Below, piece by piece: positions 717-37,386 of a stretch of DNA of 53,298 nt. The DNA is from a virus (Duplodnaviria; Caudoviricetes). Below the pieces are notes generated by a model. It was not told the DNA's origin, did no database searches, and saw only the letters and a list, made by a program, of their open reading frames with translations. The stretch is from the IMG/VR virus record IMGVR_UViG_3300032291_003809, positions 1 through 53,298 of that record; one strand, 5' to 3'. Both the position numbers and the translations under genes were made by a program. Within the stretch, counting starts at the first letter, position 1; every line of letters begins with the position of its first letter.

Positions 717-1148
717 ATGAACCAACAAAATGAAATTATATTACTTGAAGAGTTGATTTCTATAGTCAAAAACAAAGGATATACTAAAACTATCAATATT
801 CTTAAAAAGAATAACACATCTTTTTTTGAGCTAGATAATCCCTACGATAAATTTGTTGTTAATCTAATTGCTGATACTTTTGAAATAAACTCAAATGATT
901 TATTACAAAGCAGGTACAGCAGAGGCAATATGAAATATGCTATAGGCTTCTGTGTATATTATTTATATCAAGAGAAGACCCTCGGCTACATAGGTAAAAA
1001 TATATTTAAGGATAAGAATTTAACTTTGTTATCAAGATATAGACAAATGATATTTGAGTTAACTAAAAAGGATTTACCTTATTACGAAATAAAAGAAGAT
1101 TTAGATAAAAAAATAGAAAATTTTAAACTTAAAAATAAAGTTAAATGA
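717..1148 (+). CDS. Protein with DnaA domain IV-like helix-turn-helix
   Basis: IADTFEINSNDLLQSRYSR...YAIGFCVYYL...TLGYIGKNIF resembles Bac_DnaA_C pattern. Confidence 0.5.
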   Translation: MNQQNEIILLEELISIVKNKGYTKTINILKKNNTSFFELDNPYDKFVVNLIADTFEINSNDLLQSRYSRGNMKYAIGFCVYYLYQEKTLGYIGKNIFKDKNLTLLSRYRQMIFELTKKDLPYYEIKEDLDKKIENFKLKNKVK

Positions 1149-2299
1149 GTACTGAGCAAAACATAACCAATGAAGAAGTAAAACCAACCCCTTCTCCTTC
1201 CAATTATAATCCATTCTTGCAGTCAGTTAATGAAAAGCCATATTCTCAAATGAATGTTGGTGTTACTCAAGAACAAATGAGTGGTGCTATTCCTGAACCA
1301 ACCTTTTCTCCGCATACTATAGATTCAAATGAGAATCCATATAATATGTTGAATGGAGATGGCATACCTAGTGGAGGTGGAAATCAAAAAAGAGAGTCAG
1401 CACCTTTTAATCCAATGATGAATGATGTTCCTGATGGAGATAAGAAAATGGGAGCACAGCACATGGCTAAATTGTTGGTTGATGGTTATGAGCAATTACA
1501 TGTTTTTGGTAATAAAGCTTTACAAGTTCCTGAAAGAAAAATTAGAAAATTAGAGAAAGAAGGTCTAATAGATTTATCTATTCCTATTCCTTATGAATAT
1601 GGAAAGACTATTACTGCAGGAGAGTTTTTACAAGATTTTAACGAGCAAAATAAAGATGCTTTAACGGTATCAAAAGAATTTAAAAAAGAAGTTACTCCTG
1701 TATTAACTAGAGTATTAGAGAAAAGAGGTGCAGGTTTGACAGATGAACAATATTTAGGTTATTTAGTTGGGAAGGATTTAGTCGTTAAGTTAGTTATTGT
1801 TGCACAATTGCGTACAACTATGAATGATATGATTAATGTTATCAAAGATTATACTGAAGCTACGAGAGCAGGTGGCGGAGTCCCTCCTCAGCCTCAAGCC
1901 CCTAATCCTCAGCCTCAAGCTCCAACTCCAACAGCTCCTCAGTCAATGTATCAAGAGCCTGACCATTCAGCACCTGATTTTAACTTTCAAGATAATGAGG
2001 TTGTAATGAATAGTACAGTTCAGCAAATGAAAGTTCCTAATACAGGAAAAGCAAGAGTTATTGCACAAATAGAAAAAGAGAAAAAATGGAAGAGAGATGC
2101 GGAATCTGCAGGTGGAGCTTCTTCATACGAACAAGCTATGAGAGACAGAAAGAATAGTGGAAAAAGAGGAAGAAAAAAAGCTAAAGATTATATTCAAGAA
2201 GTTCAAATGGATGAAGAGCAAATAGCTGAAGCTATTATTTTGAATGAAACTTTGAATCAGCCAAAGAAAGAAAAAGACCCTTACGCTGATTTAGATTAA
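1145..2299 (+). CDS. Hypothetical protein, Pro/Gln-rich linkers and central hydrophobic helix, upstream of packaging ATPase
   Basis: 384-aa ORF overlapping upstream stop; PQPQAP repeats. Confidence 0.8.
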   Translation: MSTEQNITNEEVKPTPSPSNYNPFLQSVNEKPYSQMNVGVTQEQMSGAIPEPTFSPHTIDSNENPYNMLNGDGIPSGGGNQKRESAPFNPMMNDVPDGDKKMGAQHMAKLLVDGYEQLHVFGNKALQVPERKIRKLEKEGLIDLSIPIPYEYGKTITAGEFLQDFNEQNKDALTVSKEFKKEVTPVLTRVLEKRGAGLTDEQYLGYLVGKDLVVKLVIVAQLRTTMNDMINVIKDYTEATRAGGGVPPQPQAPNPQPQAPTPTAPQSMYQEPDHSAPDFNFQDNEVVMNSTVQQMKVPNTGKARVIAQIEKEKKWKRDAESAGGASSYEQAMRDRKNSGKRGRKKAKDYIQEVQMDEEQIAEAIILNETLNQPKKEKDPYADLD

Positions 2300-2590: not shown

Positions 2591-3412
2591 ATGGGAAGAG
2601 AACCAATGCTCATGGCAGCCTGTGGAAAGAAAGGTGTAGGTAAAAGCTATCAGCACATGATTCTTATGCAACAGTATGTTCAAGGAGATTATTATAATGG
2701 TGTTAAAGGTAGGAAATGTCTCATCATGGATGTTAACGATGAATATGGACATGGAACCTATTATGTACAAGCAATATCTTTAAAAGATGTTCCTTTATTT
2801 TCAGTTCATCCAAATATTGAAATTAGAAGGATAAGACCATTTCATCCTAATGGGACTAGAATGACCCTTGATGAATGGGCTCAAGCACTATTTTATGTTT
2901 TAAATAGATTTAGAAACGGTTTATTACTTATTGAGGATGTAAATAAATTTATTGGAGACCATTTACCAAATGACTTAGTAGGTTCAATTGCAACTAATAG
3001 ACATATAGGTTTAGATATAATTCTTTCTTATCAGTCTTTAGGTAGAATTAATACTAAAATATGGGGTAATTTAAACCAATTAAGATTTCATAAGAATAAT
3101 GAGAGTGTTGAAAGACATGCTTTAAAGTTCCCCGACAAAGCTGAATTTATGCGTATTGCAGAGATTATGGTTAATAATGAATATGCTAGAGGGAACGCAA
3201 GATTCTTTGTTTATGTTGATATGGATGAATCTAAAATTAGAGGTAATATTAGTGATGACTTGAGAGAAGAAGCTCTAAATCAGTATATAAACGAGAATTA
3301 CAATGCTTTATTAAAACCATTTTTAGTTCAAAGAGAAGGTAATAAAAAGAAACACACTTCAGATAGTGCTATTAAAGAAATAAAACAGAGGCTAATTTCA
3401 GCCTATTTTTAG
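2591..3412 (+). CDS. A32/FtsK-HerA-family P-loop ATPase, putative genome-packaging ATPase
   Basis: N-terminal Walker A GKKGVGKS, Walker B LLLIED, arginine-finger/sensor RHIGLDIILSYQ; size 273 aa matches PRD1 P9/A32-type enzymes. Confidence 0.8.
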   Translation: MGREPMLMAACGKKGVGKSYQHMILMQQYVQGDYYNGVKGRKCLIMDVNDEYGHGTYYVQAISLKDVPLFSVHPNIEIRRIRPFHPNGTRMTLDEWAQALFYVLNRFRNGLLLIEDVNKFIGDHLPNDLVGSIATNRHIGLDIILSYQSLGRINTKIWGNLNQLRFHKNNESVERHALKFPDKAEFMRIAEIMVNNEYARGNARFFVYVDMDESKIRGNISDDLREEALNQYINENYNALLKPFLVQREGNKKKHTSDSAIKEIKQRLISAYF

Positions 3413-3451: not shown

Positions 3452-3486
3452 ACCCCTTTTCTACCCCCATAGGAAGGGGTTTTTTA
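3452..3486 (+). terminator. Rho-independent terminator after ATPase operon
   Basis: ACCCCTTTTCTA...TAGGAAGGGGT stem followed by T run. Confidence 0.75.
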
Positions 3487-3578: not shown

Positions 3579-3586
3579 TAAATTTG
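3579..3586 (+). promoter_or_regulatory. Bacteroidota-type -7 promoter box TAAATTTG upstream of capsid operon
   Basis: Matches TAnnTTTG; same 8-mer at 4597, 18390, 20884 (+) and 53137 (-) upstream of genes. Confidence 0.5.
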
Positions 3587-3650
3587 ATGTGTCAATGCTG
3601 AATCTGTATTCACAATGACATATTCTTTAAAAAAATTAAATACTATTAAG

Positions 3651-3758
3651 ATGAATTTCAAAGCAATCGCAGGACAATTACTTATCGTTGCAGGTGGTGT
3701 TGCTCTTTACATGTTGGCTGTTAAGCCTATGTTAGACAAAGCTAATGTATCTAAGTAA
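3651..3758 (+). CDS. 35-aa single-TM membrane peptide (MNFKAIAGQLLIVAGGVALYMLAVKPMLDKANVSK)
   Basis: Below ORF-track cutoff; A-rich leader; hydrophobic core; TTC/ATC/TAC codons like the neighbouring capsid gene. Confidence 0.75.
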   Translation: MNFKAIAGQLLIVAGGVALYMLAVKPMLDKANVSK

Positions 3759-3815: not shown

Positions 3816-4514
3816 ATGAGTAGTATTCAACGCTATTTACAAATGGCAAACCGTCAAGTGAACGAGCAGTTCATTGGCGTAGATGGTTTCGTAGACGATG
3901 ACATGTATTTTGCAGCAGGAGATAATTTCTTCGGTGCAGATGGTACAGAAGCAGCTCCAATGGCAGCTCCTGCAGTTATGCGTTCTCAACCTTACATCTT
4001 AACAGTTTCTAACGCTTCTAACGCTGCAGTTACTATTGATGTATTCGGAGCTTACATTTACTTGAACAACGCAGGTTTTTCAGGTGGTAGCTTAACAGTG
4101 AGCAATGTTACAATCACTTCAGGATTGTCTAATGTTACTTACTACAACTTATTGAACCAATCTTCTGTATCTCCATTCACAATTGGAAGTACTTTGATTT
4201 CTTCAGTAAACGGTACAACTAGCCAAGTGTTACAACCTTTAACACTTAGCACTTTAGATGCAAACGGTAACCAAGCAACTAAAATCTTAACTCCTGTTAT
4301 TGACCCGTATCAACAACAAAGTGGTGTTATTGAATTGAAACAACCATTCCGTATTGACGGTTTCACTAAGTTGACTTTCAGCATTTATGCTTCAACTTCT
4401 GTTCAATTCCAATTCTACCCTTCTGATACAATCAACATCGCAAGAGGTTTAGGTGGAAACCCTGTATCTAAGCAATATGGTAGTCCAAAGATTATCAGAC
4501 CTGCTTCTCGTTAA
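3816..4514 (+). CDS. Putative major capsid protein (beta-rich, possibly single jelly-roll) with acidic N-terminal leader
   Basis: Downstream of packaging ATPase; own terminator-bounded unit; C-ending codon bias (AAC, TTC, TAC, ATC); alternating beta-strand pattern; paralog at 36712. Confidence 0.6.
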   Translation: MSSIQRYLQMANRQVNEQFIGVDGFVDDDMYFAAGDNFFGADGTEAAPMAAPAVMRSQPYILTVSNASNAAVTIDVFGAYIYLNNAGFSGGSLTVSNVTITSGLSNVTYYNLLNQSSVSPFTIGSTLISSVNGTTSQVLQPLTLSTLDANGNQATKILTPVIDPYQQQSGVIELKQPFRIDGFTKLTFSIYASTSVQFQFYPSDTINIARGLGGNPVSKQYGSPKIIRPASR

Positions 4515-4540
4515 TCCGAGTAGATTAGGAAAAATATAAG

Positions 4541-4583
4541 AAAGGGGCGTGAGTGTGATTATATCTTACTCCGCCCTTTTTTT
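4541..4583 (+). terminator. Rho-independent terminator after capsid candidate
   Basis: GGGCGTGAGT...ACTCCGCCC stem followed by 7 T; A run on 5' side. Confidence 0.85.
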
Positions 4584-4608
4584 AATTAAAATTTAGTAAA
4601 TTTGTTTT

Positions 4609-5022
4609 ATGTCATTACCGAGAGTAAATATATTCAACTATACAGCAGCAGCTAATCCTTACTTTGTTAAGAGTTTAGCTCATAAGTATGGTTATGAATT
4701 TGATAAGGACCAACAATTAGATACTGTGTTGCAACAACTAGTAACTTATGAAGGGGAGCCTGTCATGATGGAAATAATTGAAAATAATCCTGATAAGGAA
4801 TTATTTATGGATTATTTTGAAAAAAAATATGGCAAAAAAGAAGATACCAAAAATGTAAATGAATTAAGTAATAACAAATTATTTGAATCATATATGAATT
4901 TTTCAGGTCAATTACAAACTGCACAATTAACTGCTGAAAATAAAAGTTTAACTACTCAAACAAGCGTTATGGTTCTTTTAGGTGCGGTTTTAATTTCATT
5001 CGCAATAATGTTTAAAAAATAA
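4609..5022 (+). CDS. Putative virion membrane protein, C-terminal TM anchor
   Basis: VMVLLGAVLISFAIMFKK tail; YMNFSG motif. Confidence 0.75.
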   Translation: MSLPRVNIFNYTAAANPYFVKSLAHKYGYEFDKDQQLDTVLQQLVTYEGEPVMMEIIENNPDKELFMDYFEKKYGKKEDTKNVNELSNNKLFESYMNFSGQLQTAQLTAENKSLTTQTSVMVLLGAVLISFAIMFKK

Positions 5023-5026
5023 AAAT

Positions 5027-5704
5027 ATGGCAGCCTTAAACGCATTAGAAACAGCTAGAGAATTAATATCTTATGCAGTAGTAACTAACAAAGATGGTTT
5101 AGTAAAATTATTAGATAGAAATGGCATACAAATGCCAAATAATCCATCTGATAATGAAGTAACTGTTGCAATATTAATGGCAAATTCAAAAAGCGGTGTT
5201 TTTAGAAATGAACTGCAAAAGTATTTATCATCTTTATTACCTGAAGTAGCAGAATATGCTGATTTTTTAGGTAATGGTTATGTAGACTTTACAGGAACTG
5301 ATGATTTTTCTTTCACAGCAGGTGGTGGTAGCTTAATACCTAAGTCGTATGTTCCTACAACTAATGTTCCATCTACAGCACAACCTGTAGGAACAAAAGC
5401 TCCTACAAAAGTAGGAAATGCTTTAAGAAGTGTTGGACAATTTTTGAAAAACAATGTCTTTACTCCTGAAAATATTAATGCAGGTGTTCAAATTGGATTA
5501 ACCTCAATGGCTAATAAAACGCAAACAAAGCAAAATCAAGTAAATGCAGAAGCGTTACAATTGCAAAACTATCAAGATACTTTGAGACAACAGTTACCAA
5601 ATGCAGCTAAAAAATCTAATACTATGTTATATGTATGGATTGGAGTAGGTGTATTAGCTGTTGGTGTGTTAGGATTTGTTTTATACAAGCAATACAAAAA
5701 ATAA
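5027..5704 (+). CDS. Putative virion membrane protein, C-terminal TM anchor
   Basis: MLYVWIGVGVLAVGVLGFVLYKQYKK; YADFLG/YVDFTG/FSFTAG motifs. Confidence 0.8.
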   Translation: MAALNALETARELISYAVVTNKDGLVKLLDRNGIQMPNNPSDNEVTVAILMANSKSGVFRNELQKYLSSLLPEVAEYADFLGNGYVDFTGTDDFSFTAGGGSLIPKSYVPTTNVPSTAQPVGTKAPTKVGNALRSVGQFLKNNVFTPENINAGVQIGLTSMANKTQTKQNQVNAEALQLQNYQDTLRQQLPNAAKKSNTMLYVWIGVGVLAVGVLGFVLYKQYKK

Positions 5705-5895
5705 TGATTAGTAATAAAAAAATATTATTAATCGGAAGTGCTCTAGTATTAGCATATATTCTATTAAAGAATAAAAAAAATACTAAAAAAAATGTAAGTT
5801 CTAAAGAAGAAGTAGTTCCTTTTGACCCAATAAATGTGCAAAAAATGCCATGGGTTGCAGTACCTAATTCTCTATCTCAAATAAATAACAATTAA
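5704..5895 (+). CDS. Small N-terminal TM protein
   Basis: Start reassigned to ATG 5704 (TAATG overlap); KKILLIGSALVLAYILLKNKK. Confidence 0.7.
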   Translation: MISNKKILLIGSALVLAYILLKNKKNTKKNVSSKEEVVPFDPINVQKMPWVAVPNSLSQINNN

Positions 5896-5906
5896 AAACT
5901 AAAATT

Positions 5907-6149
5907 ATGTTAAAAGGTAAAAATTTATGGATTTTATTAGGTGTAGGTGCTGTAGCATACTACTATTGGATGCAAAAGAAAAAGAAAGATACTACTTCTG
6001 CTCCTTCTGTTGCTTTCACAGGGGATTTAGGTGTACCTGAGTATCAAAATGCAGGTGGAAGATATGTAAAAACTCGTATTCCTTATGGTAGCCAATTTAA
6101 TAGAGCCGTTGATAAATTTAGTGGTCAAGAATATTACATACCTCGTTAG
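5907..6149 (+). CDS. Small N-terminal TM protein, paralog of 6184
   Basis: MLKGKNL...LGVGAVAYYYW...AFTGDL...YQNAGG. Confidence 0.8.
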   Translation: MLKGKNLWILLGVGAVAYYYWMQKKKKDTTSAPSVAFTGDLGVPEYQNAGGRYVKTRIPYGSQFNRAVDKFSGQEYYIPR

Positions 6150-6183
6150 TAAGAAAATTATTAAAATTTAAAAAAATACAAAT

Positions 6184-6438
6184 ATGTTAAAAGGTAAAAA
6201 TTTGTACTATGTATTAGGCATAGGTGCTGTAGCATACTACTTTTGGTGGATGAACAAAAAGAAAAAAGATGCTGCTTCTGCTGCTCCTTCTACTGCTAAT
6301 GCTGCATTTACAGGAGATTTAGATGTTACTCAGTATCAAAATGCTAATGGAGATACAACAAGAAAAAGAGTAGATACCATAAGTGGGTCTTCTCCTTTTA
6401 AACATGTTGTTTTAAAAGGTAACAAGCCAAAACAATAA
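6184..6438 (+). CDS. Small N-terminal TM protein, paralog of 5907
   Basis: MLKGKNL...LGIGAVAYYFW...AFTGDL...YQNANG. Confidence 0.8.
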   Translation: MLKGKNLYYVLGIGAVAYYFWWMNKKKKDAASAAPSTANAAFTGDLDVTQYQNANGDTTRKRVDTISGSSPFKHVVLKGNKPKQ

Positions 6439-6443
6439 TTAGT

Positions 6444-6830
6444 ATGACTAATACCAAAAAAATATTATTATACGCAGGGGCGGTTGTTTTAGGGTATCAT
6501 TTATGGAAATACTACAGTAAGCCTAAAAGCGTATTAGTAAAAGGTTCAGATGCTGATACTCCTGAAAAGGTAGAATATAGCACAGGAAAAGAAGGTATGT
6601 TAGGTTCAGATGGTACTTTAGATACAATGATTAATTTAAAGAAGCCTATCTACATTAGACCTCAAAATTCAATCCCTAATGTTTATGACAGAGGAATTGG
6701 ACAATATGTAAATTGTGGTGGTTATATGAACGCAACAGGTTTTGCAGATGATTTACAATATTCTTGTAATGCTAATGTTGTAAAAAACAAACAGACTTCA
6801 GCTTTAACAGATTTGCCTAAATTACCATAA
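6444..6830 (+). CDS. N-terminal TM protein
   Basis: KKILLYAGAVVLGYHLWKYY; YVNCGG/YMNATG motifs. Confidence 0.75.
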   Translation: MTNTKKILLYAGAVVLGYHLWKYYSKPKSVLVKGSDADTPEKVEYSTGKEGMLGSDGTLDTMINLKKPIYIRPQNSIPNVYDRGIGQYVNCGGYMNATGFADDLQYSCNANVVKNKQTSALTDLPKLP

Positions 6831-6831
6831 C

Positions 6832-6972
6832 ATGAATAAAACAGTAAAATATCTTTTGATTTATGCTGCAGTAGCAGGTGGGGCTTATTTATTATATAAG
6901 CAATATCAAGTGATGCAAAATAAATTAGATGGAGATGCCGCTTTAAAAAAGTGGAACGCACAACATAATTAA
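6832..6972 (+). CDS. 46-aa N-terminal TM protein (MNKTVKYLLIYAAVAGGAYLLYKQY...)
   Basis: Not in ORF track; fills gap exactly, same TM style as neighbours. Confidence 0.75.
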   Translation: MNKTVKYLLIYAAVAGGAYLLYKQYQVMQNKLDGDAALKKWNAQHN

Positions 6973-6982
6973 AATAAAAACA

Positions 6983-7219
6983 ATGGCAGAAGCAAAAGAA
7001 ATATTAGATAAGGTAAAACAATTAAAATCTAATTCTGATAGTATGGCATTAAAGAAAATGAAAGGTACTGTTTCAGGAGCCATGATTGGAATGGGTGGTG
7101 GATTATTGATTGGATTTACAAGAGGCTATAGTCTAGTCTCTTCTGCATTTGTAGGAGCTTTGATTGGTGGGGTTATTTCACAGATTCTTTTACCAAAATT
7201 AGATGATAGCAATGAATAA
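6983..7219 (+). CDS. Glycine-zipper two-TM membrane protein
   Basis: GAMIGMGGGLLIG...AFVGALIGGVI. Confidence 0.75.
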   Translation: MAEAKEILDKVKQLKSNSDSMALKKMKGTVSGAMIGMGGGLLIGFTRGYSLVSSAFVGALIGGVISQILLPKLDDSNE

Positions 7220-7883
7220 GAAATATATGAAATTAGCAGCTTTGGCTGCTATTGCTATTGGTGGTTATTTAGTTGTAAGAAACATTTTAGGTAAATCTAA
7301 GGGTTCTAATATTGAGTCCCCAATTCCTGATGCACCTAGCAAACTTAGTGCTCAAGACTTCCCAATTCAAAAAGGTAGTAAAGGGGAAAAGGTAAGAGAA
7401 TTACAATCAATTTTAATTGGAATTAATCCAAGTGCACTTCCTAAATATGGGGTTGATGGAGATTTTGGCTCAGAAACAGAATCTGCTCTTTTTAAATATT
7501 TGAATAAAAAGTCAGTAGACGGCCAAGATGATATGACTACTTTAAGAGGCTTAAAAGATGCAGCTCAAGCTACAGCTTTGCAAAATTCAGTTAATGATAA
7601 TAGAAATGTAGCAGCCAATCAAATTATTTCAAGTTGGAGGGCTAATAGAGGATTAAGTGTTTATGCCAAAGAAGTAGTGCAATATGCAGTTGGAAATTTA
7701 AGCTTTTCGGGGCAAGAAACAAATCTTGCTACTAAAAACGCAGGGACAGGAGCTTTAATTGTTAATGGGTTTGAAGTTAAAGATATGAGTGTATTGCCAA
7801 GTGGGTTTTTAAAAATTATTATTACAGGAGGATTAACGGGCAATTTTATAAAAATTAGTCCTTTTGCTGTAGTATTAAAATAG
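7203..7883 (+). CDS. Membrane-anchored peptidoglycan-binding (PG_binding_1) protein
   Basis: N-terminal TM; FPIQKGSKGEKVRELQ...GVDGDFGSETESAL. Confidence 0.85.
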   Translation: MIAMNKKYMKLAALAAIAIGGYLVVRNILGKSKGSNIESPIPDAPSKLSAQDFPIQKGSKGEKVRELQSILIGINPSALPKYGVDGDFGSETESALFKYLNKKSVDGQDDMTTLRGLKDAAQATALQNSVNDNRNVAANQIISSWRANRGLSVYAKEVVQYAVGNLSFSGQETNLATKNAGTGALIVNGFEVKDMSVLPSGFLKIIITGGLTGNFIKISPFAVVLK

Positions 7884-7911
7884 TAATTTTAAACAAAAAA
7901 TAACCATAAAA

Positions 7912-8202
7912 ATGGAAGAAGTAAATGTTGAAAAAAAGCTTACTGCCAACCAACTTTTTAAACAATATAAAGATGAAGGCGGCACATTAGCTTTTTCAGA
8001 TTGGCTAAGTAGAGAGAAAACTAAAGGAGTTTTCCCAATTAATAGTAACTTAAACAAAGAAATAGGCGAAAAATTGTTTATATTAAAAAAAGAAGAAATG
8101 GATAAAAAAGTATTAGGATTTCCCGTTAGTACACTTCTTATTGCAGGTGGTGTAATAGTAGTGGCAATAGTTGCTGTTAATCTGTTAAAAAAGAAAGCGT
8201 AA
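7912..8202 (+). CDS. Small C-terminal TM protein
   Basis: LLIAGGVIVVAIVAVNLLKKKA; AACCATAAAA directly before ATG. Confidence 0.75.
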   Translation: MEEVNVEKKLTANQLFKQYKDEGGTLAFSDWLSREKTKGVFPINSNLNKEIGEKLFILKKEEMDKKVLGFPVSTLLIAGGVIVVAIVAVNLLKKKA

Positions 8203-8489
8203 TGAAAAAAGATAATTTTATTTGGTGGGTACTAGGTGGTGTTGGGGCTGTTGCTATTTGGTATTATTATAAAAATAATAATAATAAAAAAAGTGTAACT
8301 ACTCAAGACTTAGTTGTAGATGTTCTTCAAGAAGAGCAAGACAAATATAGTACGCCTTTCCAAGCTGAATACAAGATTGTAATGCCATCAGATATGGTAA
8401 GTGCTAAAGTGAGAGCAAAAGCGGAAGCGTTAAGAGCAGGAAGATTTGCAATCCAACCTGAAAAGGTACAAGCACCGTTATACATCTAG
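8202..8489 (+). CDS. Small N-terminal TM protein
   Basis: FIWWVLGGVGAVAIWYYYK. Confidence 0.75.
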   Translation: MKKDNFIWWVLGGVGAVAIWYYYKNNNNKKSVTTQDLVVDVLQEEQDKYSTPFQAEYKIVMPSDMVSAKVRAKAEALRAGRFAIQPEKVQAPLYI

Positions 8490-8490
8490 T

Positions 8491-9297
8491 ATGCAGTATA
8501 AATTATGGACAAGGTATGAACCTGTAATGGTTAAGATTGTAGTGAAGACAAATTCGCCACAGCCAATTGTGTTAAAGGCATTTGACCCAACACAGGCCAA
8601 TACGGTTTTTATGGAAAGAGAAAAAACTGTTGATGGAGTACAAGAGTTGTATGTGAGGATGCCATTATCCCCAAATTCAACTGCTCTAGCAATTTATAAT
8701 AAAAAAAATGGCAACCTACCGAAAGGTCAGGACAGTTCTTTTGAAGTAGTGGAAATCAAAAAAGAAGACTTGGACATTACTTTGTCTAAAACAAAAATGG
8801 ACAATTCTTTAGTTAGAAACTTTGTTGCTTTTGCTCAAAAGTTTGCATACAATGCAGGTTGGGTTCAAGCTCCAAAAGATTATATAAGTTCCGTAGGTGC
8901 TTTTAAAATAGAATACCTACCTTATATAAGAAGTAACAAAACAGGAGAGAAAATGGCTACCCCTGCTCGTATAAGTACCAAAAATGGTCGTATACAAGTA
9001 TCTCAGGAATCATTTCTTCCTTTTACTATCCCTATGAGAATGGCAATTTTATTACATGAGTTTAGCCATTTTTATTTGAATAGTGATATTTCTAATGAGA
9101 CTGAAGCGGATTTAAACGGACTTACAATTTATTTAGGATTAGGCTACCCTATCAAAGAGGCCTATTCTGCTTTCATTGATACCTTTATAGGTTATCCAAC
9201 GGAGCAAAATAAAAGAAGATATGATATTATCAATAGGTTCATAAAGGACTATATTGAAGAATATAAAATTAAAGATGTCTACGCAGTAGGCGAATAA
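8491..9297 (+). CDS. Zincin-type (HExxH) metallopeptidase, candidate virion maturation protease
   Basis: AILLHEFSHF followed by ETEAD (third Zn ligand pattern); start reassigned to ATG 8491; embedded in structural operon. Confidence 0.75.
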   Translation: MQYKLWTRYEPVMVKIVVKTNSPQPIVLKAFDPTQANTVFMEREKTVDGVQELYVRMPLSPNSTALAIYNKKNGNLPKGQDSSFEVVEIKKEDLDITLSKTKMDNSLVRNFVAFAQKFAYNAGWVQAPKDYISSVGAFKIEYLPYIRSNKTGEKMATPARISTKNGRIQVSQESFLPFTIPMRMAILLHEFSHFYLNSDISNETEADLNGLTIYLGLGYPIKEAYSAFIDTFIGYPTEQNKRRYDIINRFIKDYIEEYKIKDVYAVGE

Positions 9298-9307
9298 AAT
9301 ATATGTT

Positions 9308-9835
9308 ATGGCAGAAAAAGGATTAATGAAAGTATATACAGAATTACCATCTTGGGCTAAGGGCGTAGTAGTCATAGGTGGATTAACTGTAACCTATTTA
9401 GCAGTAACAGCGGTACTTAGAAAATTTAAAGAGACTAAAGTTAAAAACGAGTCTTTAGCTGAAGTAAACAATGCTAGTAGTGAGTTGAATACCCAAATTC
9501 AAACAGGAAAAGGTCCAACCATCGCTAGAAGCCAAGCTGAAGCTATGTCAAATGCAATTGTTGCGGCTGCGAATGATTGTGGTACTGAAGAGAGACAAAT
9601 TTATGCTCAATTTGATAAGGTTAATAATCAAGCAGATATATTATTATTTGTAGATGTGTTTGGATTAAGAAAAAAAGTAAGGTGTCCTTTCTCTGATGAC
9701 CCTAGAGAATCATTTTTTTCAGCAAATACACCTCCAATGTCATTATCTGCTATGATTAATAGTGAGTTAGATGCAACTCAAATTGCAACAATAAATAATA
9801 AATTAGCAAGTAAAGGAATAACTTATAAATTTTAG
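9308..9835 (+). CDS. N-terminal TM protein with helical domain
   Basis: WAKGVVVIGGLTVTYLAVTAVL; GTEERQIYAQF is weakly annexin-like. Confidence 0.7.
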   Translation: MAEKGLMKVYTELPSWAKGVVVIGGLTVTYLAVTAVLRKFKETKVKNESLAEVNNASSELNTQIQTGKGPTIARSQAEAMSNAIVAAANDCGTEERQIYAQFDKVNNQADILLFVDVFGLRKKVRCPFSDDPRESFFSANTPPMSLSAMINSELDATQIATINNKLASKGITYKF

Positions 9836-9838
9836 TAT

Positions 9839-10459
9839 ATGGCAATATTTGAAAGTGAAAAGAAAAGAAAAGAAGAAGCAGCAAATTTGTATTCTCAAAA
9901 ATACCCTTTGAGTGATTCTATATCTTCTTTGCAAAATAGTTTGAATTTGGCTAATGTAGAGTTAGTTGGATTAAAGAATGATAAACCTGAAACTTCAGGA
10001 GCTATTCGTGTTAGACAAAGAAACATTACTGCTCTATCTAATAGAATAATGCAGTTACAAAATAAAATTAAAGATTTAAAAAGCGGAATGAGTGGTAATG
10101 ATATTTTAAGAATAGCAGCACCATCATTAACTAGACTTACTGATATTACTACTAATAAGATATTAAACGCTACCCCTTACAGCTTTCAAATACCTACTTA
10201 TAATTATCCAACTTCAAGTACTAACTTATTAGCTACTCCAAAATATGCTCCTGCAAAAACAACTGATGCTAGAGATTTGGCGGATTCAGTAGAAAATGGG
10301 CAAGGTCTTCCTGTAGATGGAGAACCTACGGGTGCTCAAGGAGATTATCCTCCTCCTTATGGAGTACAAGGCTCAAACACTAAGTCAATTTTGTTGTATG
10401 GTGGTTTAGCAGCGGTATTAGGTTTTACAGCTTATTATATGTTTATAAAGAAAAAATAA
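9839..10459 (+). CDS. KYP-family coiled-hairpin protein 1, C-terminal TM
   Basis: KYPLSD...GAIRVRQRNITAL; ILLYGGLAAVLGFTAYYMF. Confidence 0.75.
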   Translation: MAIFESEKKRKEEAANLYSQKYPLSDSISSLQNSLNLANVELVGLKNDKPETSGAIRVRQRNITALSNRIMQLQNKIKDLKSGMSGNDILRIAAPSLTRLTDITTNKILNATPYSFQIPTYNYPTSSTNLLATPKYAPAKTTDARDLADSVENGQGLPVDGEPTGAQGDYPPPYGVQGSNTKSILLYGGLAAVLGFTAYYMFIKKK

Positions 10460-10463
10460 AGAA

Positions 10464-10937
10464 ATGGCACTACCAAAATTAGGACCTACGGGTAAAAAAA
10501 TAGCAACAGGAGCAGCAGTTGCAGGGGTATTAACACTTGCAGGGATTGGCATATCAAAAAACGCAGAACGAAAAAGAGTTTTGTCTACTGAAGGAGATAT
10601 GGATAAAAAATATCCTTTCTCTGAAAATTGCTTAGAAATGCAAAATATCCTTAAATCTGCAAAATTGGCTTTGAGTCAAATGGAATCTGAATCAGGTGGA
10701 GATGCGGGTGCAAAAAGAGTGAGAGCAAGACAAATTGCTGCTTTAAAAGGAAGAATAGTTGAAATTGAGAAATATTCTTTAAGCTTAGATTGCTCAAATT
10801 TACTATTATCTAATGAAGGATTGGTCCAAGAATCTCCTGCTTCTACAACATCAAACACGACAAAGTACTTGTTATATGGAGTAGCGGGTGTAATTTTGTT
10901 AGTGGTATTTTCTAATTTAATGCGTAAAAAAGACTAG
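10464..10937 (+). CDS. KYP-family coiled-hairpin protein 2, C-terminal TM
   Basis: KYPFSENC...GAKRVRARQIAAL...LDC; KYLLYGVAGVILLVVF. Confidence 0.75.
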   Translation: MALPKLGPTGKKIATGAAVAGVLTLAGIGISKNAERKRVLSTEGDMDKKYPFSENCLEMQNILKSAKLALSQMESESGGDAGAKRVRARQIAALKGRIVEIEKYSLSLDCSNLLLSNEGLVQESPASTTSNTTKYLLYGVAGVILLVVFSNLMRKKD

Positions 10938-10939
10938 TT

Positions 10940-11737
10940 ATGGCAGTAAAAATATTTGGTACGACAATCATAGGAGGCGAAGCTCAAAGAAAAGAGGCCG
11001 CTTCTAATACTATGTCAGGGAAATACCCATTGACAAATGATTGTAATTTAATGAAGAGCACTATTGAAGCTGCAAAAGCTGAATTAGCTCAAATAAATGC
11101 TAGTAGACCTTCTACTGCGGGTGGTAAGCGTATAAAGGCAAGAAATTCAGATGCTTTGAAAGTTTGGATTAATGAAATGCAAAACTTTTTAAAGGATTTA
11201 ACATGCGGTATAGTATATACTCCTGAAGGAATTAAAGTAACTCCTGTTGCAGCTCCTTCTGCAGATGCTACTGTAACGCCTAGTCCTACAGCACCGACTC
11301 CTGTTCCACAACAGCCTACCATTTTTACCCCTGAAGTTGTTAAAAACTATGAACAACCAAGTATTAAATGTGCGGATGGTACTTATGATGTAGCTAATGG
11401 AGTTAATCCTCCATGTGCAAACAAAGGTGGGGTATATTTACCAAGTTTGCCATTACCTGCTCCTGCACCTGTATTACCAAGTGGTCAGTCAACAATAATA
11501 AGTGCTCCTGCACCTGTGAGTCAACCGTTGCCATCTGCATCTATACCTCCTACAGTAGATTATGCAAAACTATATGATACTGCAGCTTTAGGTACAGCAA
11601 TAGCACAATCTAATGGTTCTGCTCCTTCCCCTATTAGTGCACCTGCTGCTCAAGATGATACGCAAAAATATTTAATGTATGGCGGTATTGCTTTAATTGG
11701 TGTTTTAGTATTAAATTCATTAACAAATAGAGATTAA
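10940..11737 (+). CDS. KYP-family coiled-hairpin protein 3, Pro-rich stalk, C-terminal TM
   Basis: KYPLTNDC...GGKRIKARNSDAL...LTC; KYLMYGGIALIGVLVL. Confidence 0.75.
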   Translation: MAVKIFGTTIIGGEAQRKEAASNTMSGKYPLTNDCNLMKSTIEAAKAELAQINASRPSTAGGKRIKARNSDALKVWINEMQNFLKDLTCGIVYTPEGIKVTPVAAPSADATVTPSPTAPTPVPQQPTIFTPEVVKNYEQPSIKCADGTYDVANGVNPPCANKGGVYLPSLPLPAPAPVLPSGQSTIISAPAPVSQPLPSASIPPTVDYAKLYDTAALGTAIAQSNGSAPSPISAPAAQDDTQKYLMYGGIALIGVLVLNSLTNRD

Positions 11738-11748
11738 AAATATTAACT

Positions 11749-12432
11749 ATGGCTATAGATATGATTGAAAATAACGATTTAGGTGCTTTAGCCAAAGGAA
11801 GGCTTGGGGACTTAAATGGTTTTACAGATGAGAATAAAATCTATAAAAACTTTGCAGGAAATGAAGAAGTTTTTCAAAAAATAGATATTAACGAAGAATT
11901 TGAAAATCTTTTTGGTATCAATATTTTTGGAGATGAAACTTTTAAAAGAAACAAAGAAAAGGCAAAAACTGATGCAGAAACTTTTGTAAAAAAACTACCT
12001 AAGACTACTTGTGATGATTTAAAAAGTAGCTTAGATAAGTTAGCATTATATATTGAAGCTCAAACTAAAGAATTAGGATTAGCTAAAGGTCATGTAACAG
12101 AATATCCAAAAATTAGGTTGGGAATAGCTAGAACTGCAGAGGCTGAAATGAAAATGAAACAAGAAGAGAAGCAATGTATAGCTATAGCTCAAAAAATTGA
12201 AACTGAGCAAAAGAAAGCAGAACTTATAAAAACTTTAACTAATGTATCTGAAGCTAGTGTACAACAAGCTAAAACAGACTTATTTGGAGTTCCTAGTGGG
12301 CAACCTTTATATGCTCCTGCTTCACAAGGTGGCGGATTAACAGCGAGTTTGGGCTCTAATAAAAATTTATTAATTTACGGTGGAATTGGACTTGGTGCAG
12401 TTTTACTATTAGCAATGTTAAGAAACAGATAA
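11749..12432 (+). CDS. Divergent KYP-family protein with acidic leader, C-terminal TM
   Basis: KLPKTTC...KQC; leader with YKNFAG/FENLFG; LLIYGGIGLGAVLLLAML. Confidence 0.7.
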   Translation: MAIDMIENNDLGALAKGRLGDLNGFTDENKIYKNFAGNEEVFQKIDINEEFENLFGINIFGDETFKRNKEKAKTDAETFVKKLPKTTCDDLKSSLDKLALYIEAQTKELGLAKGHVTEYPKIRLGIARTAEAEMKMKQEEKQCIAIAQKIETEQKKAELIKTLTNVSEASVQQAKTDLFGVPSGQPLYAPASQGGGLTASLGSNKNLLIYGGIGLGAVLLLAMLRNR

Positions 12433-12923
12433 TGAAATACTTAAAACCCATATTAGTAGTTAGTGGATTATCTATAATAGGTTATGCTTTATATAATTAT
12501 TATAAAAAGCAGATAGACTTTTTAAAAGATATTAGCTATAAAATTACAGGTATAAGATTAGTTACTATCTCTCAAGGAGATGTAACAATAGAAGTTATCA
12601 TGGATGTTTATAATGCTTCTAATGTAGAGGCTACTGTTACTGAGATATTCTTAGATTTTACAATGAATGGTGTTAAAGTAGGAAGTATAAATGAATCACA
12701 AGAATTTGTAATATTACCTACAAAAACTAGTCAAGTAAGATATAATTTTACTTTCAATCCTAGTTTAGTATTTAAAAATATTGTTAATATAGCAACTTTG
12801 ACATTATCGTTAAAAGATGTTAAATTTGTAGCAGATGGATACATAAAAGTAAAAAGTTCATTCCTTTCAACGACTGTCCCTTTTACCTATGAAAATACTT
12901 TGAAAAATCTTTTAAAAAAATAA
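12432..12923 (+). CDS. LEA_2 (WHy)-domain membrane protein
   Basis: N-terminal TM; VYNASNVEATVTEIFLDFTMNGVKVGSI. Confidence 0.75.
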   Translation: MKYLKPILVVSGLSIIGYALYNYYKKQIDFLKDISYKITGIRLVTISQGDVTIEVIMDVYNASNVEATVTEIFLDFTMNGVKVGSINESQEFVILPTKTSQVRYNFTFNPSLVFKNIVNIATLTLSLKDVKFVADGYIKVKSSFLSTTVPFTYENTLKNLLKK

Positions 12924-12926
12924 CAA

Positions 12927-13202
12927 ATGGGAGCTACTAATATATGGTCTAAAACAATTACAGATACCTCTTTAACAATATCTGCTAGTCAAAATGTTGT
13001 TAGAATATCAGTTTTAGCAAGTCAAGGCCCTGTTACCATATTGGGTACATCAGTATTTAATGGAACTGCATCAGATGCTGTAACTTTTGCTACAGGTCAA
13101 GGTGTAACTTTAACTGCTTCATCTACAGCTAATCCTATAGATGGAGTTACAATTGCGTGTACAGGAGGAGGAGTCGCAGATATTGTATTATCTTATCAAT
13201 AA
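12927..13202 (+). CDS. Small all-beta structural protein
   Basis: 91 aa, Thr/Ser/Val/Gly-rich beta pattern. Confidence 0.65.
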   Translation: MGATNIWSKTITDTSLTISASQNVVRISVLASQGPVTILGTSVFNGTASDAVTFATGQGVTLTASSTANPIDGVTIACTGGGVADIVLSYQ

Positions 13203-13210
13203 AAAATAAA

Positions 13211-13654
13211 ATGGAAAATAGAGATATTGTATTATTATTAGGTTTAGGTGTTGTAGGTTACTATATATACAACAAGGCAAAAAGTGGTTCTGACTTAAAT
13301 GTAAAAACATTTGTAGAAGAAAATTTGTCTAGTGTTCCAACTAGTATTCCAACTAATGTTCCTGTGGCACCTCAAGAACCAACTGCACCTATCCCTATGC
13401 CAACTGCTGCACCTGCGACAACAACTAAATATACTTATCCTGAAGGGATTGGGAAAGATGGTAAGAAATTTGAATTAAATGATGGCGATTATGTAGCAAA
13501 TGGGGAAGAAACTGCTATTTTATATCAAGGTAAATTAAGACCTATGACTGCTGCTTATGCTAACAAATTTGCAGCGGGTACTTGGGAAAGAACAAAAATT
13601 TTAGATAATATAGTTTATAGCAGCATACCGAGAGGTGCTGTTTTAGATGCGTAA
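13211..13654 (+). CDS. N-terminal TM protein with Pro/Thr stalk
   Basis: Start reassigned to ATG 13211; IVLLLGLGVVGYYIY. Confidence 0.75.
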   Translation: MENRDIVLLLGLGVVGYYIYNKAKSGSDLNVKTFVEENLSSVPTSIPTNVPVAPQEPTAPIPMPTAAPATTTKYTYPEGIGKDGKKFELNDGDYVANGEETAILYQGKLRPMTAAYANKFAAGTWERTKILDNIVYSSIPRGAVLDA

Positions 13655-18381: not shown

Positions 18382-18433
18382 AAAAGTTGTAAATTTGGTT
18401 ACTAAAAACTAACCATAAAATAATGAAAGAATT

Positions 18434-21290: not shown

Positions 21291-21293
21291 AAA

Positions 21294-36711: not shown

Positions 36712-37386
36712 ATGGCGGAACAAGTACAAGGTACGGCTCTATCACAAGAACAGCTACTGCAATTTCAAATCGTAAATAATGCAGCAGACCCTGTTCCCAA
36801 TATACCTTTTCTTACTCCCAATGTAAGTTTTAACGCTACTGTTCAATATCAATGGTTGTTACCTGCTAACTTAAATTCTAGCATAACGGTATCTCCTACA
36901 GTTACTACATTGTTAATACCAACTCTTCAGGTTGATGTTCCTGTTAATGTAGATACACCTACAGGTTTAACTTATAGTCAAGTACAAGAGAGTATCACTA
37001 CAAACAACTACGAGACTAATTTTATTTTCGCACAATCAAGCAATTGTAATCAGGTTGGTCAAGTTTTTACATATAACCAAGTTGATGTAGCAGGTAATGC
37101 AACAGTAAATGCCTTACCTTTTACAATTGACCCTTATCAAGCTCAATGTGCATCGTATTTCTATCCTCCTGAACATTCTGTAATATTTAGTGGAGAAAGC
37201 TCCCTTAACTTTACAATGTTGCCTGAAACTACTATGAATTTAAAAGTATTTTCAAGTACAGCTAGTGCAGCATTAATACAAGATGAAATTAGTGGTTTTA
37301 AAAACAATACCTATGTACAAGTTGAAAAAGACCTAGGAACTGATATATTCACAGATTATTGTAATTATTTAATAGACCACGAATAA
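36712..37386 (+). CDS. Capsid-protein paralog (minor capsid/vertex candidate)
   Basis: TY.Q...QV.Q...D.AGN...IDPYQAQ...L.F aligns with TY.N...QV.Q...DANGN...IDPYQQQ...LTF of 3816. Confidence 0.65.
   Translation: MAEQVQGTALSQEQLLQFQIVNNAADPVPNIPFLTPNVSFNATVQYQWLLPANLNSSITVSPTVTTLLIPTLQVDVPVNVDTPTGLTYSQVQESITTNNYETNFIFAQSSNCNQVGQVFTYNQVDVAGNATVNALPFTIDPYQAQCASYFYPPEHSVIFSGESSLNFTMLPETTMNLKVFSSTASAALIQDEISGFKNNTYVQVEKDLGTDIFTDYCNYLIDHE

What the first reader, a model, noticed from the sequence alone, without database searches (positions are those of the whole stretch)
3816..4514. Capsid candidate sized for a single jelly-roll, isolated as its own highly expressed unit
Seen: the gene lies between two intrinsic terminators, after a TAAATTTG box, and prefers C-ending codons (AAC, TTC, TAC, ATC) unlike its AT-ending neighbours. 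After a ~45-55 aa acidic/Ala-Pro leader only ~180 beta-rich residues remain. Inference: it is the major capsid protein, too short for a double jelly-roll and so possibly a single jelly-roll capsid (as in Halopanivirales/portogloboviruses) or a new fold.
Basis: partly seen in the sequence, partly recalled or inferred. Interest (0 to 1): 0.85.

Follow-up and report, generated by a model that had tools for sequence, protein, structure and literature searches.

The report
Jelly-roll capsid candidate, large phage
This gene encodes a small beta-sandwich (jelly-roll) protein that is probably the main shell protein of a previously undescribed group of unusually large, apparently tailless freshwater phages.

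Summary
ORF 3816-4514 (232 aa) has by far the strongest C-ending codon bias in the window (40/68 against 867/4199 pooled). It ends at a strong terminator, but it shares its promoter-to-terminator unit with a 35-47-aa membrane ORF (3615-3758). The box, small ORF, gene and terminator layout recurs in 56-59 of 57-59 distinct related loci.

AlphaFold gives one jelly-roll sandwich behind an N-terminal helix and a disordered acidic arm. Foldseek matches only generic jelly rolls.

The upstream gene folds like the STIV B204 genome-packaging NTPase (E 1e-8) and matches the P23-77 packaging ATPase by profile. It lies upstream in 68 of 69 loci. Relatives of 100-132 kb show no HK97 capsid, portal or large-terminase signal.

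A three-copy model supports self-association (0.71 against 0.00), apparently as an open chain.

[quoted passage not shown] The capsid role is inferred, not shown.

The parts
3816..4514 (+). Jelly-roll protein gene (232 aa): N-terminal helix 3-19, disordered acidic/Ala-Pro arm about 20-55, single beta-sandwich about 56-206, C-terminal tail. This is the putative major capsid protein.
   Evidence: ORF. AF2 model pLDDT 86.8, pTM 0.75. Foldseek. Codon bias. Family of 566 clusters at 50% identity.
3615..3758 (+). Small hydrophobic ORF (47 aa; 35 aa from the ATG at 3651) co-transcribed with the jelly-roll gene. It is a putative single-pass membrane protein.
   Evidence: Hydrophobic 19-mer. C-ending codons 5/10. 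A 34-57-aa hydrophobic ORF sits at the same place in 56 of 57 distinct loci.
3579..3586 (+). TAAATTTG box, a TAnnTTTG-type (Bacteroidota -7-like) promoter element of the two-gene unit.
   Evidence: Present at the same relative position in 59 of 59 distinct loci against 23% of random windows. The link to Bacteroidota promoters is recalled knowledge.
3452..3486 (+). Intrinsic-terminator-like hairpin plus T-run after the ATPase gene.
   Evidence: dG -12.3, z -2.2; 4 of 200 shuffles fold as well.
4537..4584 (+). Strong intrinsic terminator closing the unit.
   Evidence: dG -26.8, z -5.5. A hairpin plus T-run lies within 110 nt of the stop in 56 of 57 distinct loci.
2591..3412 (+). FtsK/HerA-superfamily genome-packaging ATPase (273 aa), B204-like.
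   Evidence: AF2 pLDDT 89.4. The first 11 chains listed by Foldseek (ranks 1-13) are all STIV/STIV2 B204, E 1.2e-8, TM 0.67. hhalign to the P23-77 packaging ATPase gives 86%, E 5e-6. It lies upstream of the jelly-roll gene in 68 of 69 loci.
1145..2299 (+). Conserved 384-aa protein of the same module, function unknown.
   Evidence: Found in 65 of 69 loci, always upstream of the ATPase. No Pfam or PHROG family.
4609..5022 (+). Conserved 137-aa tail-anchored membrane protein, first of a run of small membrane-protein genes up to about 13.6 kb.
   Evidence: Found in 66 of 69 loci directly downstream. Has a C-terminal hydrophobic segment. 10 of 19 ORFs in 4609-13654 have a hydrophobic 19-mer.
36712..37386 (+). 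Paralogous jelly-roll protein (224 aa) directly upstream of a 1364-aa repeat adhesin. It is a putative vertex (penton-like) protein.
   Evidence: hhalign to the family profile gives 96%, E 4e-9. Orthologs occur in all 8 relatives' records searched. Codon usage 18/61, moderate. The vertex role is inference.

Best explanation
ORF 3816-4514 encodes the major shell-forming (capsid) protein of a so far undescribed lineage of large (about 100-132 kb) dsDNA phages, probably of Bacteroidota. These phages appear to build a tailless virion of the PRD1/STIV/P23-77 type, with an internal membrane.

Proposed mechanism:
- A late promoter with a TAnnTTTG box drives a short, very strongly expressed two-gene transcript. 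It encodes a roughly 35-aa membrane protein and the 25-kDa jelly-roll protein, and it ends at a strong terminator.
- The jelly-roll domains pack side by side, head to tail, into ring-shaped capsomers of more than three subunits.
- The N-terminal amphipathic helix and acidic arm reach under the shell, towards the membrane or minor proteins.
- A paralogous jelly-roll protein (36712-37386), with the collagen-like and Thr-rich fibre proteins, forms the vertices and spikes.
- The B204-like ATPase encoded just upstream pumps the genome into the preformed shell.

Shown by computation: the fold, the codon bias, the conserved unit and synteny, the kinship of the ATPase, and predicted self-association.

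Inferred: the capsid role, ring size, membrane, vertex role of the paralog, host and taillessness.
For: 1. Fold. One jelly-roll sandwich after a helix and a disordered arm. The best PDB matches are single-jelly-roll coat proteins: CPMV small subunit E 6.8e-4, STMV, picornavirus VP.

2. Expression signature in the window. C-ending codons 40/68 against 867/4199 in the rest (p 1.2e-11), the highest of 73 ORFs.

3. Expression signature in relatives. The gene ranks first in 52 of 57 distinct related loci. It ranks first of 135 genes in the 102-kb relative G005.

4. Conserved unit. TAnnTTTG box in 59 of 59 loci. Small hydrophobic ORF in 56 of 57 and terminator in 56 of 57.

5. Neighbour. The upstream ATPase model matches the STIV/STIV2 B204 packaging NTPase (the first 11 listed chains, ranks 1-13; E 1.2e-8, TM 0.67). 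It also matches the P23-77 packaging ATPase by profile (86%, E 5e-6).

6. Synteny. The ATPase lies upstream of the jelly-roll gene in 68 of 69 viral loci. The same holds in all 7 further loci that have enough upstream DNA, out of 10 examined. P23-77 has the same order: ATPase, small ORFs, capsid genes, small structural proteins.

7. No tailed-phage hallmarks. 39 proteins of G005 and G006, including every G005 ORF of 305 aa or more but one, gave no major-head, portal or large-terminase PHROG. The remaining one is the 380-aa ORF, whose window ortholog was scanned without result. PF05065, PF03237 and PF04860 matched 0 of 5 records, while the controls rang in 4, 6 and 4 of 14 genomes.

8. Self-association. 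Three copies of residues 52-232 scored a median ipSAE of 0.71 (runs 0.71, 0.82, 0.20) against a best control of 0.00. The runs agree in at least 86% of contacts, and partner pLDDT is at least 79. The mark was reached by 20 of 30 solved pairs and 1 of 23 single chains; these counts hold only roughly, since my own alignment and three copies were used.

9. Geometry hint. In the best run, copy 1 uses only surface A, copy 2 only surface B and copy 3 both. That is an open chain, not a closed trimer.

10. Membrane context. 10 of the 19 ORFs that follow have a hydrophobic segment. One carries a peptidoglycan-binding, endolysin-like domain.

11. Conservation. In the 13 closest loci the protein is more conserved than the ATPase, 79-100% against 68-99%.

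12. Weak hint from RNA. Contigs of 4 metatranscriptome runs from 4 studies cover the gene. Single contigs there have depth 5-114, against 2-6 for contigs with 0-1 mismatches on neighbouring genes. The tool warns that contig depth cannot rank genes.
Against: - There are no virion, proteome or microscopy data. The capsid role is inference.
- Foldseek matches are marginal (E no better than 1e-4, TM 0.16-0.47). TNF, C1q/collagen-head, concanavalin and CBM jelly rolls score about as well.
- No P23-77, SPV1, PRD1 or PM2 capsid chain is among the 50 best PDB matches.
- The family profile shows no similarity to P23-77 VP16/VP17 or to 28 SSIP-1 proteins (probability 0.8% or less).
- A shell for a genome of 100 kb or more made from one 25-kDa single jelly roll has no precedent.
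- An HK97-fold or double-jelly-roll protein too divergent for HMMs could be hidden among the many unannotated ORFs. Only two proteins were folded. The two double-jelly-roll Pfam searches had weak or silent controls.
- The window is only about half a genome (CheckV 47%).
- In G007 the gene is not among the 8 most biased of 130 genes (28/71). In G006 it ranks 5th of 216.
- Predicted interface residues are not significantly more conserved than the rest (0.471 against 0.436, permutation p about 0.16).
- One of the three complex runs scored only 0.20.
- The same domain occurs in 1-4 other proteins per genome, near fibre and adhesin genes, so it is a reusable module.
Confidence: 0.6

Rival explanations
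1. The protein is an abundant virion surface component (spike head, turret, decoration or lectin-like adhesin, possibly a filament of jelly-roll subunits), not the shell itself. The true capsid protein is another, unrecognised gene.
For: - Foldseek finds TNF, C1q-like heads of collagen-like proteins, concanavalin A, CBM22, a phage tail-fibre domain and Ena fibre subunits at scores similar to the coat proteins.
- The phage encodes four collagen-repeat proteins and large adhesins.
- Paralogs of the domain sit beside fibre and adhesin genes.
- An open head-to-tail contact pattern would also fit a filament.
Against: - It is the most codon-optimised gene, and it is more conserved than the ATPase among close relatives.
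- It is fixed next to the packaging ATPase rather than in the fibre module.
- No member is fused to a collagen or other stalk. Most of the 150 best family representatives are 200-260 aa, and no relative of 407-2000 aa was found, which is weak evidence.
- The three-copy model is not a closed trimer, as TNF/C1q heads are.
- No other capsid candidate was detected.
Confidence: 0.2
2. The phage is a tailed (HK97-type) phage whose capsid, portal and terminase are too divergent for HMMs. This protein would then be a head-decoration or other accessory structural protein, and the ATPase would have another job.
For: - Very divergent phage groups have escaped HMM annotation before (recalled knowledge).
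- Several genes carry tail-fibre-type families: Peptidase_S74 chaperone domains and phrog_12032 'short tail fiber' at E 1e-28.
- RecT and an exonuclease are typical of tailed phages.
- The ATPase has a weak hit to a PHROG labelled large terminase (E 7e-5).
Against: - No HK97, portal or large-terminase signal in the 39 proteins scanned or in 5 records searched in six frames, with controls that rang.
- The 1364-aa protein is a Thr-linker repeat adhesin, not a tape measure.
- The ATPase is a 273-aa single-domain B204-like fold without a nuclease domain.
- The long run of membrane proteins is not typical of a head module.
Confidence: 0.12
3. The protein is a highly expressed non-structural protein, for example a secreted or membrane-associated carbohydrate-binding factor made during infection.
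For: The jelly-roll fold is shared with lectins and CBMs. It is co-transcribed with a small membrane protein.
Against: - No signal peptide or hydrophobic segment.
- Predicted homo-oligomer.
- Fixed place in the module with the packaging ATPase and membrane proteins.
- Strong conservation across a family of 566 clusters.
Confidence: 0.05

Closest known systems
Helvetiavirae / Halopanivirales (Thermus phage P23-77, VP16 and VP17 capsid proteins with the ORF13 packaging ATPase)
   Same: - Single-jelly-roll capsid-type fold.
- Gene order of packaging ATPase, small ORF(s), capsid gene(s), then small structural or membrane proteins.
- The ATPase is homologous by profile (86%, E 5e-6).
   Different: - Only one jelly-roll gene in the unit, not two adjacent ones.
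- No profile similarity to VP16/VP17 (0.5% or less).
- Genome at least 100 kb, against 17 kb for P23-77.
- Bacteroidota-type promoter boxes.
- Whether the jelly roll stands vertically in the shell could not be tested.
STIV/STIV2 (Turriviridae) B204 genome-packaging NTPase, and the double-jelly-roll lineage in general (PRD1, PM2, FLiP)
   Same: The ATPase fold is closest to B204 (E 1.2e-8, TM 0.67). A packaging ATPase next to a jelly-roll capsid gene, with many small membrane proteins, is the layout recalled for this lineage.
   Different: - The capsid candidate has one jelly roll, not two.
- Prokaryotic double-jelly-roll viruses found by Yutin et al. 2018 have genomes of roughly 7-18 kb (PMC5894146, passages seen). 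Here the genomes are 100-132 kb.
Portogloboviridae (SPV1): single-jelly-roll VP4 hexamers with a jelly-roll penton protein (recalled, not from a call)
   Same: The proposed architecture is alike: one single-jelly-roll major protein forming rings, plus a second jelly-roll protein at the vertices.
   Different: SPV1 is an archaeal virus with a small genome and, as recalled, no packaging ATPase. No SPV1 chain is among the 50 best Foldseek matches. No direct comparison was possible.
[quoted passage not shown]
   Same: A membrane-containing tailless phage of a Bacteroidota host with an orphan genome. A review describes it as having PRD1-type architecture (PMC6356626, passages seen).
   Different: SSIP-1 is 43.8 kb and is said to have two capsid protein types. 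None of the 28 of its 57 proteins that I compared resembles the jelly-roll or ATPase profile (7.5% or less).
TNF/C1q-like trimeric head domains of collagen-like proteins
   Same: Jelly-roll topology. Foldseek lists TNF, EDA, BclA and giant-virus C1q-like proteins.
   Different: No collagen or coiled-coil stalk. The protein stands alone, with an N-terminal helix and an acidic arm. The three-copy model is open, not a closed trimer.

Membership tests
Varidnaviria-type morphogenesis module (jelly-roll capsid protein plus FtsK/HerA-type packaging ATPase) | [quoted passage not shown] | tested here: met
   Foldseek: the first 11 chains listed (ranks 1-13) are B204, E 1.2e-8. hhalign to the P23-77 ATPase: 86%, E 5e-6. 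Adjacent in 68 of 69 loci.
Varidnaviria-type morphogenesis module (jelly-roll capsid protein plus FtsK/HerA-type packaging ATPase) | Major capsid protein with a jelly-roll fold | tested here: met
   AF2 model with one beta-sandwich, pLDDT above 90 over the core. Jelly-roll matches only. That it is the MAJOR capsid protein is inferred.
Varidnaviria-type morphogenesis module (jelly-roll capsid protein plus FtsK/HerA-type packaging ATPase) | Jelly-roll strands perpendicular to the capsid surface (vertical) | not testable with these tools
Varidnaviria-type morphogenesis module (jelly-roll capsid protein plus FtsK/HerA-type packaging ATPase) | Internal lipid membrane | not testable with these tools
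   Only indirect evidence: 10 of 19 downstream ORFs have hydrophobic segments, and a small membrane ORF is co-transcribed.
Helvetiavirae (two single-jelly-roll capsid proteins) | Two different single-jelly-roll capsid genes, adjacent, both major | tested here: not met
   There is one jelly-roll gene in the unit. The next gene is a 137-aa tail-anchored protein. The paralog lies 32 kb away and has ordinary codon usage.
Helvetiavirae (two single-jelly-roll capsid proteins) | Detectable kinship to VP16/VP17-type proteins | tested here: not met
   hhalign of the family profile against P23-77 VP16 and VP17 gave a probability of 0.5% or less. None is among the 50 best Foldseek PDB matches. A structural superposition was not done.
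Bamfordvirae (double-jelly-roll capsid protein) | Two jelly rolls in one chain | tested here: not met
   A single sandwich of about 150-170 residues. A tandem two-domain paralog exists only in relative G005, and it was not folded.
TNF/C1q-like head domains | Closed homotrimer | tested here: inconclusive
   In the three-copy model, copies 1 and 2 each use only one of the two surfaces. The tool states that residues it does not name are uncertain.
TNF/C1q-like head domains | Sits at the end of a collagen or coiled-coil stalk | tested here: not met
   No stalk is present. Most family members are 200-260 aa. No longer relatives were found, which is weak evidence.
HK97-type (tailed phage) virion module | HK97-fold capsid protein, portal and large terminase in the genome | tested here: not met
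   0 of 39 scanned proteins. PF05065, PF03237 and PF04860 matched 0 of 5 records, with controls ringing. This is sequence-level only; folds were not examined.

The most novel reading that the evidence does not exclude
These contigs represent the first tailless, internal-membrane phages with genomes above 100 kb. That is 2-3 times SSIP-1 and 5-15 times other jelly-roll phages.

Their shell would be built from hexamer-like rings of ONE single-jelly-roll protein of a new sequence family. A paralog would sit at the vertices and carry glycosylated collagen-like and mucin-like fibres.

They would be a new high-rank taxon, at class level or above, beside Helvetiavirae. They appear common in fresh water and would infect Bacteroidota.

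One member (G005) carries a natural tandem duplication of the same domain. That would be a living example of the single-to-double jelly-roll transition.
Probability: 0.4. Interest if true: 0.9.

Novelty: new variant of a known kind. Interest (0 to 1): 0.8.

Why it matters
If the reading is right, three things follow.

1. The jelly-roll plus B204-type-ATPase way of building virions is not limited to small phage genomes. It would scale to 100-132 kb in bacteria, as it does in giant viruses of eukaryotes.

2. A large, widespread group of freshwater phages has probably been filed as unclassified or tailed. The capsid family has 566 clusters at 50% identity, and there are 69 viral contigs.

3. It would give a directly testable system for long-standing questions: how single-jelly-roll shells relate to double-jelly-roll ones, and how big membrane-containing capsids are measured and assembled.

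In practice, the protein and its ATPase are good marker genes for finding this lineage.

Tried and rejected
Searches that found nothing
- Pfam and PHROGs on the protein: no family.
- tblastn of the protein and of the ATPase against 50,697 phage records: no match.
- PDB sequence searches with the family profile and the ATPase: only noise or Walker-A-level hits.
- ESM Atlas: nearest clusters are all unnamed, with scores of 0.89 or less, so they are leads only.
- Search for longer, fused relatives: none, which is weak evidence.

Locus searches
- Alignments A1 and A4 had no conserved stretch to search with.
- Three single distant members found nothing in viral contigs.
- The narrower alignment A2 worked.

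Checks with poor controls
- The double-jelly-roll Pfam families PF04451 and PF09018 matched 0 of 5 records. Their controls rang in only 1 and 0 of 14 genomes, so this says nothing.

Ideas dropped
- That conservation marks the predicted interface: not significant (p about 0.16).
- That the 1364-aa protein is a tape measure: it is a Thr-linker repeat protein.
- That the TAnnTTTG box is enriched in the window as a whole: it is not. Only its position is conserved.

RNA data
- The low cover of neighbouring genes, and the apparent start and stop of cover near 3650 and 4770, are therefore not counted as evidence.
- Adapter-like loose ends at 3630, 3656 and 4472 were not interpreted.

Tool availability
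- The look-up of sequencing runs was unreachable five times before it answered (then 111).

Literature
- Five full-text searches found no paper describing this group.
- Only search listings and abstracts were seen, apart from passages of PMC5894146 and PMC6356626.
- Supplements are closed, so contig lists in the supplements of metagenomic surveys could still hold these sequences.
Full report
WHAT THE WINDOW IS

The window is a whole IMG/VR virus record of 53,298 bases, linear, estimated 47% complete. It has about 31-34% G+C and no tRNA.

It carries phage genes:
- RecT and an exonuclease;
- a DUF1064 resolvase-like gene;
- a peptidoglycan-binding, endolysin-like protein;
- Peptidase_S74 fibre-chaperone domains.

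It also carries a striking set of fibre genes and modification enzymes: four collagen-repeat proteins, six 2OG-Fe(II) oxygenases, many glycosyltransferases and a sulfotransferase. No tailed-phage head, portal, terminase or tail-tube family was found in it.

THE OBSERVATION

ORF 3816-4514 (232 aa) exists as described.

Codon usage. Its preference for C-ending codons is real. It uses 40 C-ending against 28 T-ending codons for Asn, Phe, Tyr, Ile, His and Asp. The other 72 ORFs pooled use 867 against 3332 (Fisher p 1.2e-11). This is the highest value of 73 ORFs. CGT is also preferred for Arg, 4 of 7 against 29 of 443 elsewhere.

Terminators. A hairpin plus T-run follows the upstream gene (3452-3486; dG -12.3, z -2.2). 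A much stronger one follows this gene (4537-4584; dG -26.8, z -5.5).

Promoter box. The TAAATTTG box is at 3579-3586. It stands in front of a small hydrophobic ORF (3615-3758), so the unit holds two genes.

Comparison with relatives shows the layout is not chance. One search returned 69 related viral loci, which hold 59 distinct gene sequences; 10 duplicates were dropped.
- All 59 have a TAnnTTTG box 182-296 nt upstream of the gene. Only 272 of 1180 random windows of the same size have one.
- 57 of the 59 have a whole ORF (L068 and L106 are cut). Of these, 56 have a 34-57-aa hydrophobic ORF just upstream, and 56 have a hairpin plus T-run within 110 nt downstream.
- In 52 of the 57, this gene is the most C-biased gene of the locus.

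TAnnTTTG is, as I recall, the -7 element of Bacteroidota promoters. Of the five metagenome-assembled-genome contigs that carry the gene, two are binned as Bacteroidota and one as Ignavibacteria. The other two are binned as Gammaproteobacteria and Chlamydiae, so binning is no proof of host.

THE PROTEIN

It has no Pfam or PHROG family and no relative in 50,697 deposited phage genomes. It nonetheless heads a large family: 346 clusters at 90% identity and 566 representatives at 50% identity with E of 0.001 or better. Almost all members are 200-260 aa, and no longer fused forms were found (weak evidence).

An AlphaFold model from 74 sequences (pLDDT 86.8, pTM 0.75) has three parts:
- a helix at 3-19;
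- a low-confidence acidic/Ala-Pro stretch to about residue 55;
- one beta-sandwich with the strand order of a jelly roll.

Against the PDB, the best matches are single-jelly-roll coat proteins (cowpea mosaic virus small subunit, satellite tobacco mosaic virus, picornavirus VPs). TNF, concanavalin A, CBM22 and others follow closely. All have E of 7e-4 or worse and TM 0.2-0.4. The viral library gives the same mixture of capsid proteins and C1q-like heads.

The fold alone does not say 'capsid'.

THE NEIGHBOURHOOD

The gene upstream (2591-3412) has a Walker A motif and only weak HMM hits. Its model (pLDDT 89.4) matches the genome-packaging NTPase B204 of STIV and STIV2 in all of the first 11 chains listed (ranks 1-13; E 1.2e-8, TM 0.67). 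HerA and the Zot N-domain follow. A profile of 31 orthologs aligns to the packaging ATPase of Thermus phage P23-77 (86%, E 5e-6, 157 columns).

The order is conserved:
- the 384-aa protein in 65 of 69 loci;
- the ATPase in 68 of 69;
- the jelly-roll gene in all 69;
- the 137-aa tail-anchored protein in 66 of 69;
- an HExxH protein further on in 60 of 69.

The ATPase also lies upstream in all 7 of 10 further loci that have enough upstream DNA. P23-77 shows the same logic: ATPase, small ORFs, capsid genes, small structural proteins.

Downstream of the gene, 10 of 19 ORFs up to 13.6 kb have a hydrophobic segment.

IS THERE ANOTHER CAPSID GENE?

Relatives reach 100-102 kb in three records that CheckV calls complete. 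One 132-kb contig looks viral from end to end.

I scanned 39 proteins of G005 and G006 against PHROGs. These included every G005 ORF of 305 aa or more except the 380-aa one. Its window ortholog had already been scanned without result. None of the 39 matched a major head, portal or large-terminase family.

Six-frame searches with PF05065, PF03237 and PF04860 found nothing in 5 records, while the controls rang.

This is sequence-level evidence only. A very divergent HK97 or double-jelly-roll protein cannot be excluded.

SELF-ASSOCIATION

Three copies of residues 52-232 gave a median score of 0.71 (runs 0.71, 0.82, 0.20) against 0.00 for the best of three controls. Contacts agree in at least 86%, and partner pLDDT is at least 79. 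In the calibration, the mark was reached by 20 of 30 solved pairs and 1 of 23 single chains. Those counts hold only roughly here.

In the best run, copy 1 contacts only through one surface: 79-81, 117-122, 147-153 (the DANGN loop) and 179-183. Copy 2 contacts only through the other: 57-60 (the SQPY motif), 104-116, 202 and 207-214. Copy 3 uses both.

That is a head-to-tail chain that does not close at three. It would suit rings of five or six, or a lattice, better than a TNF-like trimer. The tool warns that residues it does not name are merely uncertain.

Ten of the 20 most conserved core residues lie in this interface. Overall, however, the interface is not significantly more conserved than the rest (p about 0.16).

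PARALOGS

A 224-aa protein at 36712-37386 shares the domain (96%, E 4e-9). It sits directly before a 1364-aa protein made of Cys-containing repeats joined by poly-Thr linkers. A 'short tail fibre' family protein lies nearby.

A paralog match of 154-225 aa was found in all 8 relatives' records searched. Where I mapped the context (G005, G006), it is the ortholog of 36712-37386 and again precedes large, variable, repeat-rich proteins. Its codon usage is ordinary.

I read this paralog as a vertex protein that carries the fibres. This is inference.

G005 alone has a 397-aa protein with two tandem copies of the domain.

RNA

Four metatranscriptome runs from four studies hold contigs on the gene. 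Contigs with 0-1 mismatches on neighbouring genes show that the same or a near-identical phage is present in those runs. Single contigs on the gene have depth 5-114, against 2-6 on the neighbours.

Conserved genes also collect several strains. I count this only as a weak hint.

VERDICT

The best-supported reading (about 0.6) is that this is the major capsid protein: a single jelly roll of a new sequence family. It would belong to large, probably tailless and membrane-containing phages of Bacteroidota that package DNA with a B204-type ATPase.

Rivals:
- an abundant surface or fibre component (0.2);
- an accessory protein of a cryptically tailed phage (0.12);
- a non-structural lectin-like protein (0.05).

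It works like the capsid module of P23-77, STIV and PRD1. It fails the membership tests for Helvetiavirae (one gene, not two; no profile kinship) and for double-jelly-roll viruses.

I found no description of the group in five literature searches. Known prokaryotic double-jelly-roll viruses are about 7-18 kb (PMC5894146, passages), and SSIP-1 is 43.8 kb. Supplements could not be read.

Noticed in passing
window 14089-22517; 22540-33437; 43270-45448: A fibre island. It holds four collagen-repeat proteins (1430, 414, 409 and 407 aa), three of them ending in Peptidase_S74 chaperone domains. Beside them are six 2OG-Fe(II) oxygenases, at least six glycosyltransferases, a sulfotransferase and an FkbM methyltransferase. 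This recalls the modified fibrils of giant viruses, which is unusual for a phage.
   Followed up: partly
window 37388-41482: A 1364-aa protein built of Cys-containing beta-rich repeats joined by poly-Thr linkers, probably a glycosylated adhesin. It directly follows the jelly-roll paralog 36712-37386.
   Followed up: partly
window 9839-12432: Four consecutive tail-anchored proteins share an N-terminal motif (KYPL...C..M...) and a C-terminal hydrophobic anchor. This was seen by eye; the anchors are. They look like a paralogous family of membrane proteins.
   Followed up: no
G005:C1:17225-18418 (L026/L029): A 397-aa protein with two tandem copies of the jelly-roll domain (E 4e-21 and 4e-24). Its codon usage is average (38/125). 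It was seen in 1 of 8 relatives' records searched. It may be a natural single-to-double jelly-roll duplication.
   Followed up: partly
window 51047-51517 (-): The second most C-biased gene of the window (24/48). It has no PHROG family and is perhaps another highly expressed protein.
   Followed up: no
G006:C9 (L118-L124): A 132,486-bp contig binned with a Sediminibacterium MAG. It is colinear with the 102-kb relative and shows only small phage-like ORFs at both ends. The lineage's genomes may therefore exceed CheckV's 'complete' 100-102 kb.
   Followed up: partly
window 8446-9297: A conserved protein of 268-283 aa with an HExxH motif, present in 60 of 69 loci. It has no family and may be a virion-associated metallopeptidase.
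   Followed up: no
G005:C1:41987-45526 (L037): A 1179-aa protein with LPD11 and DUF2958 domains, a 'large polyvalent protein'. Beside it are ORFs of 1681 and 2267 aa with almost no annotation.
   Followed up: no
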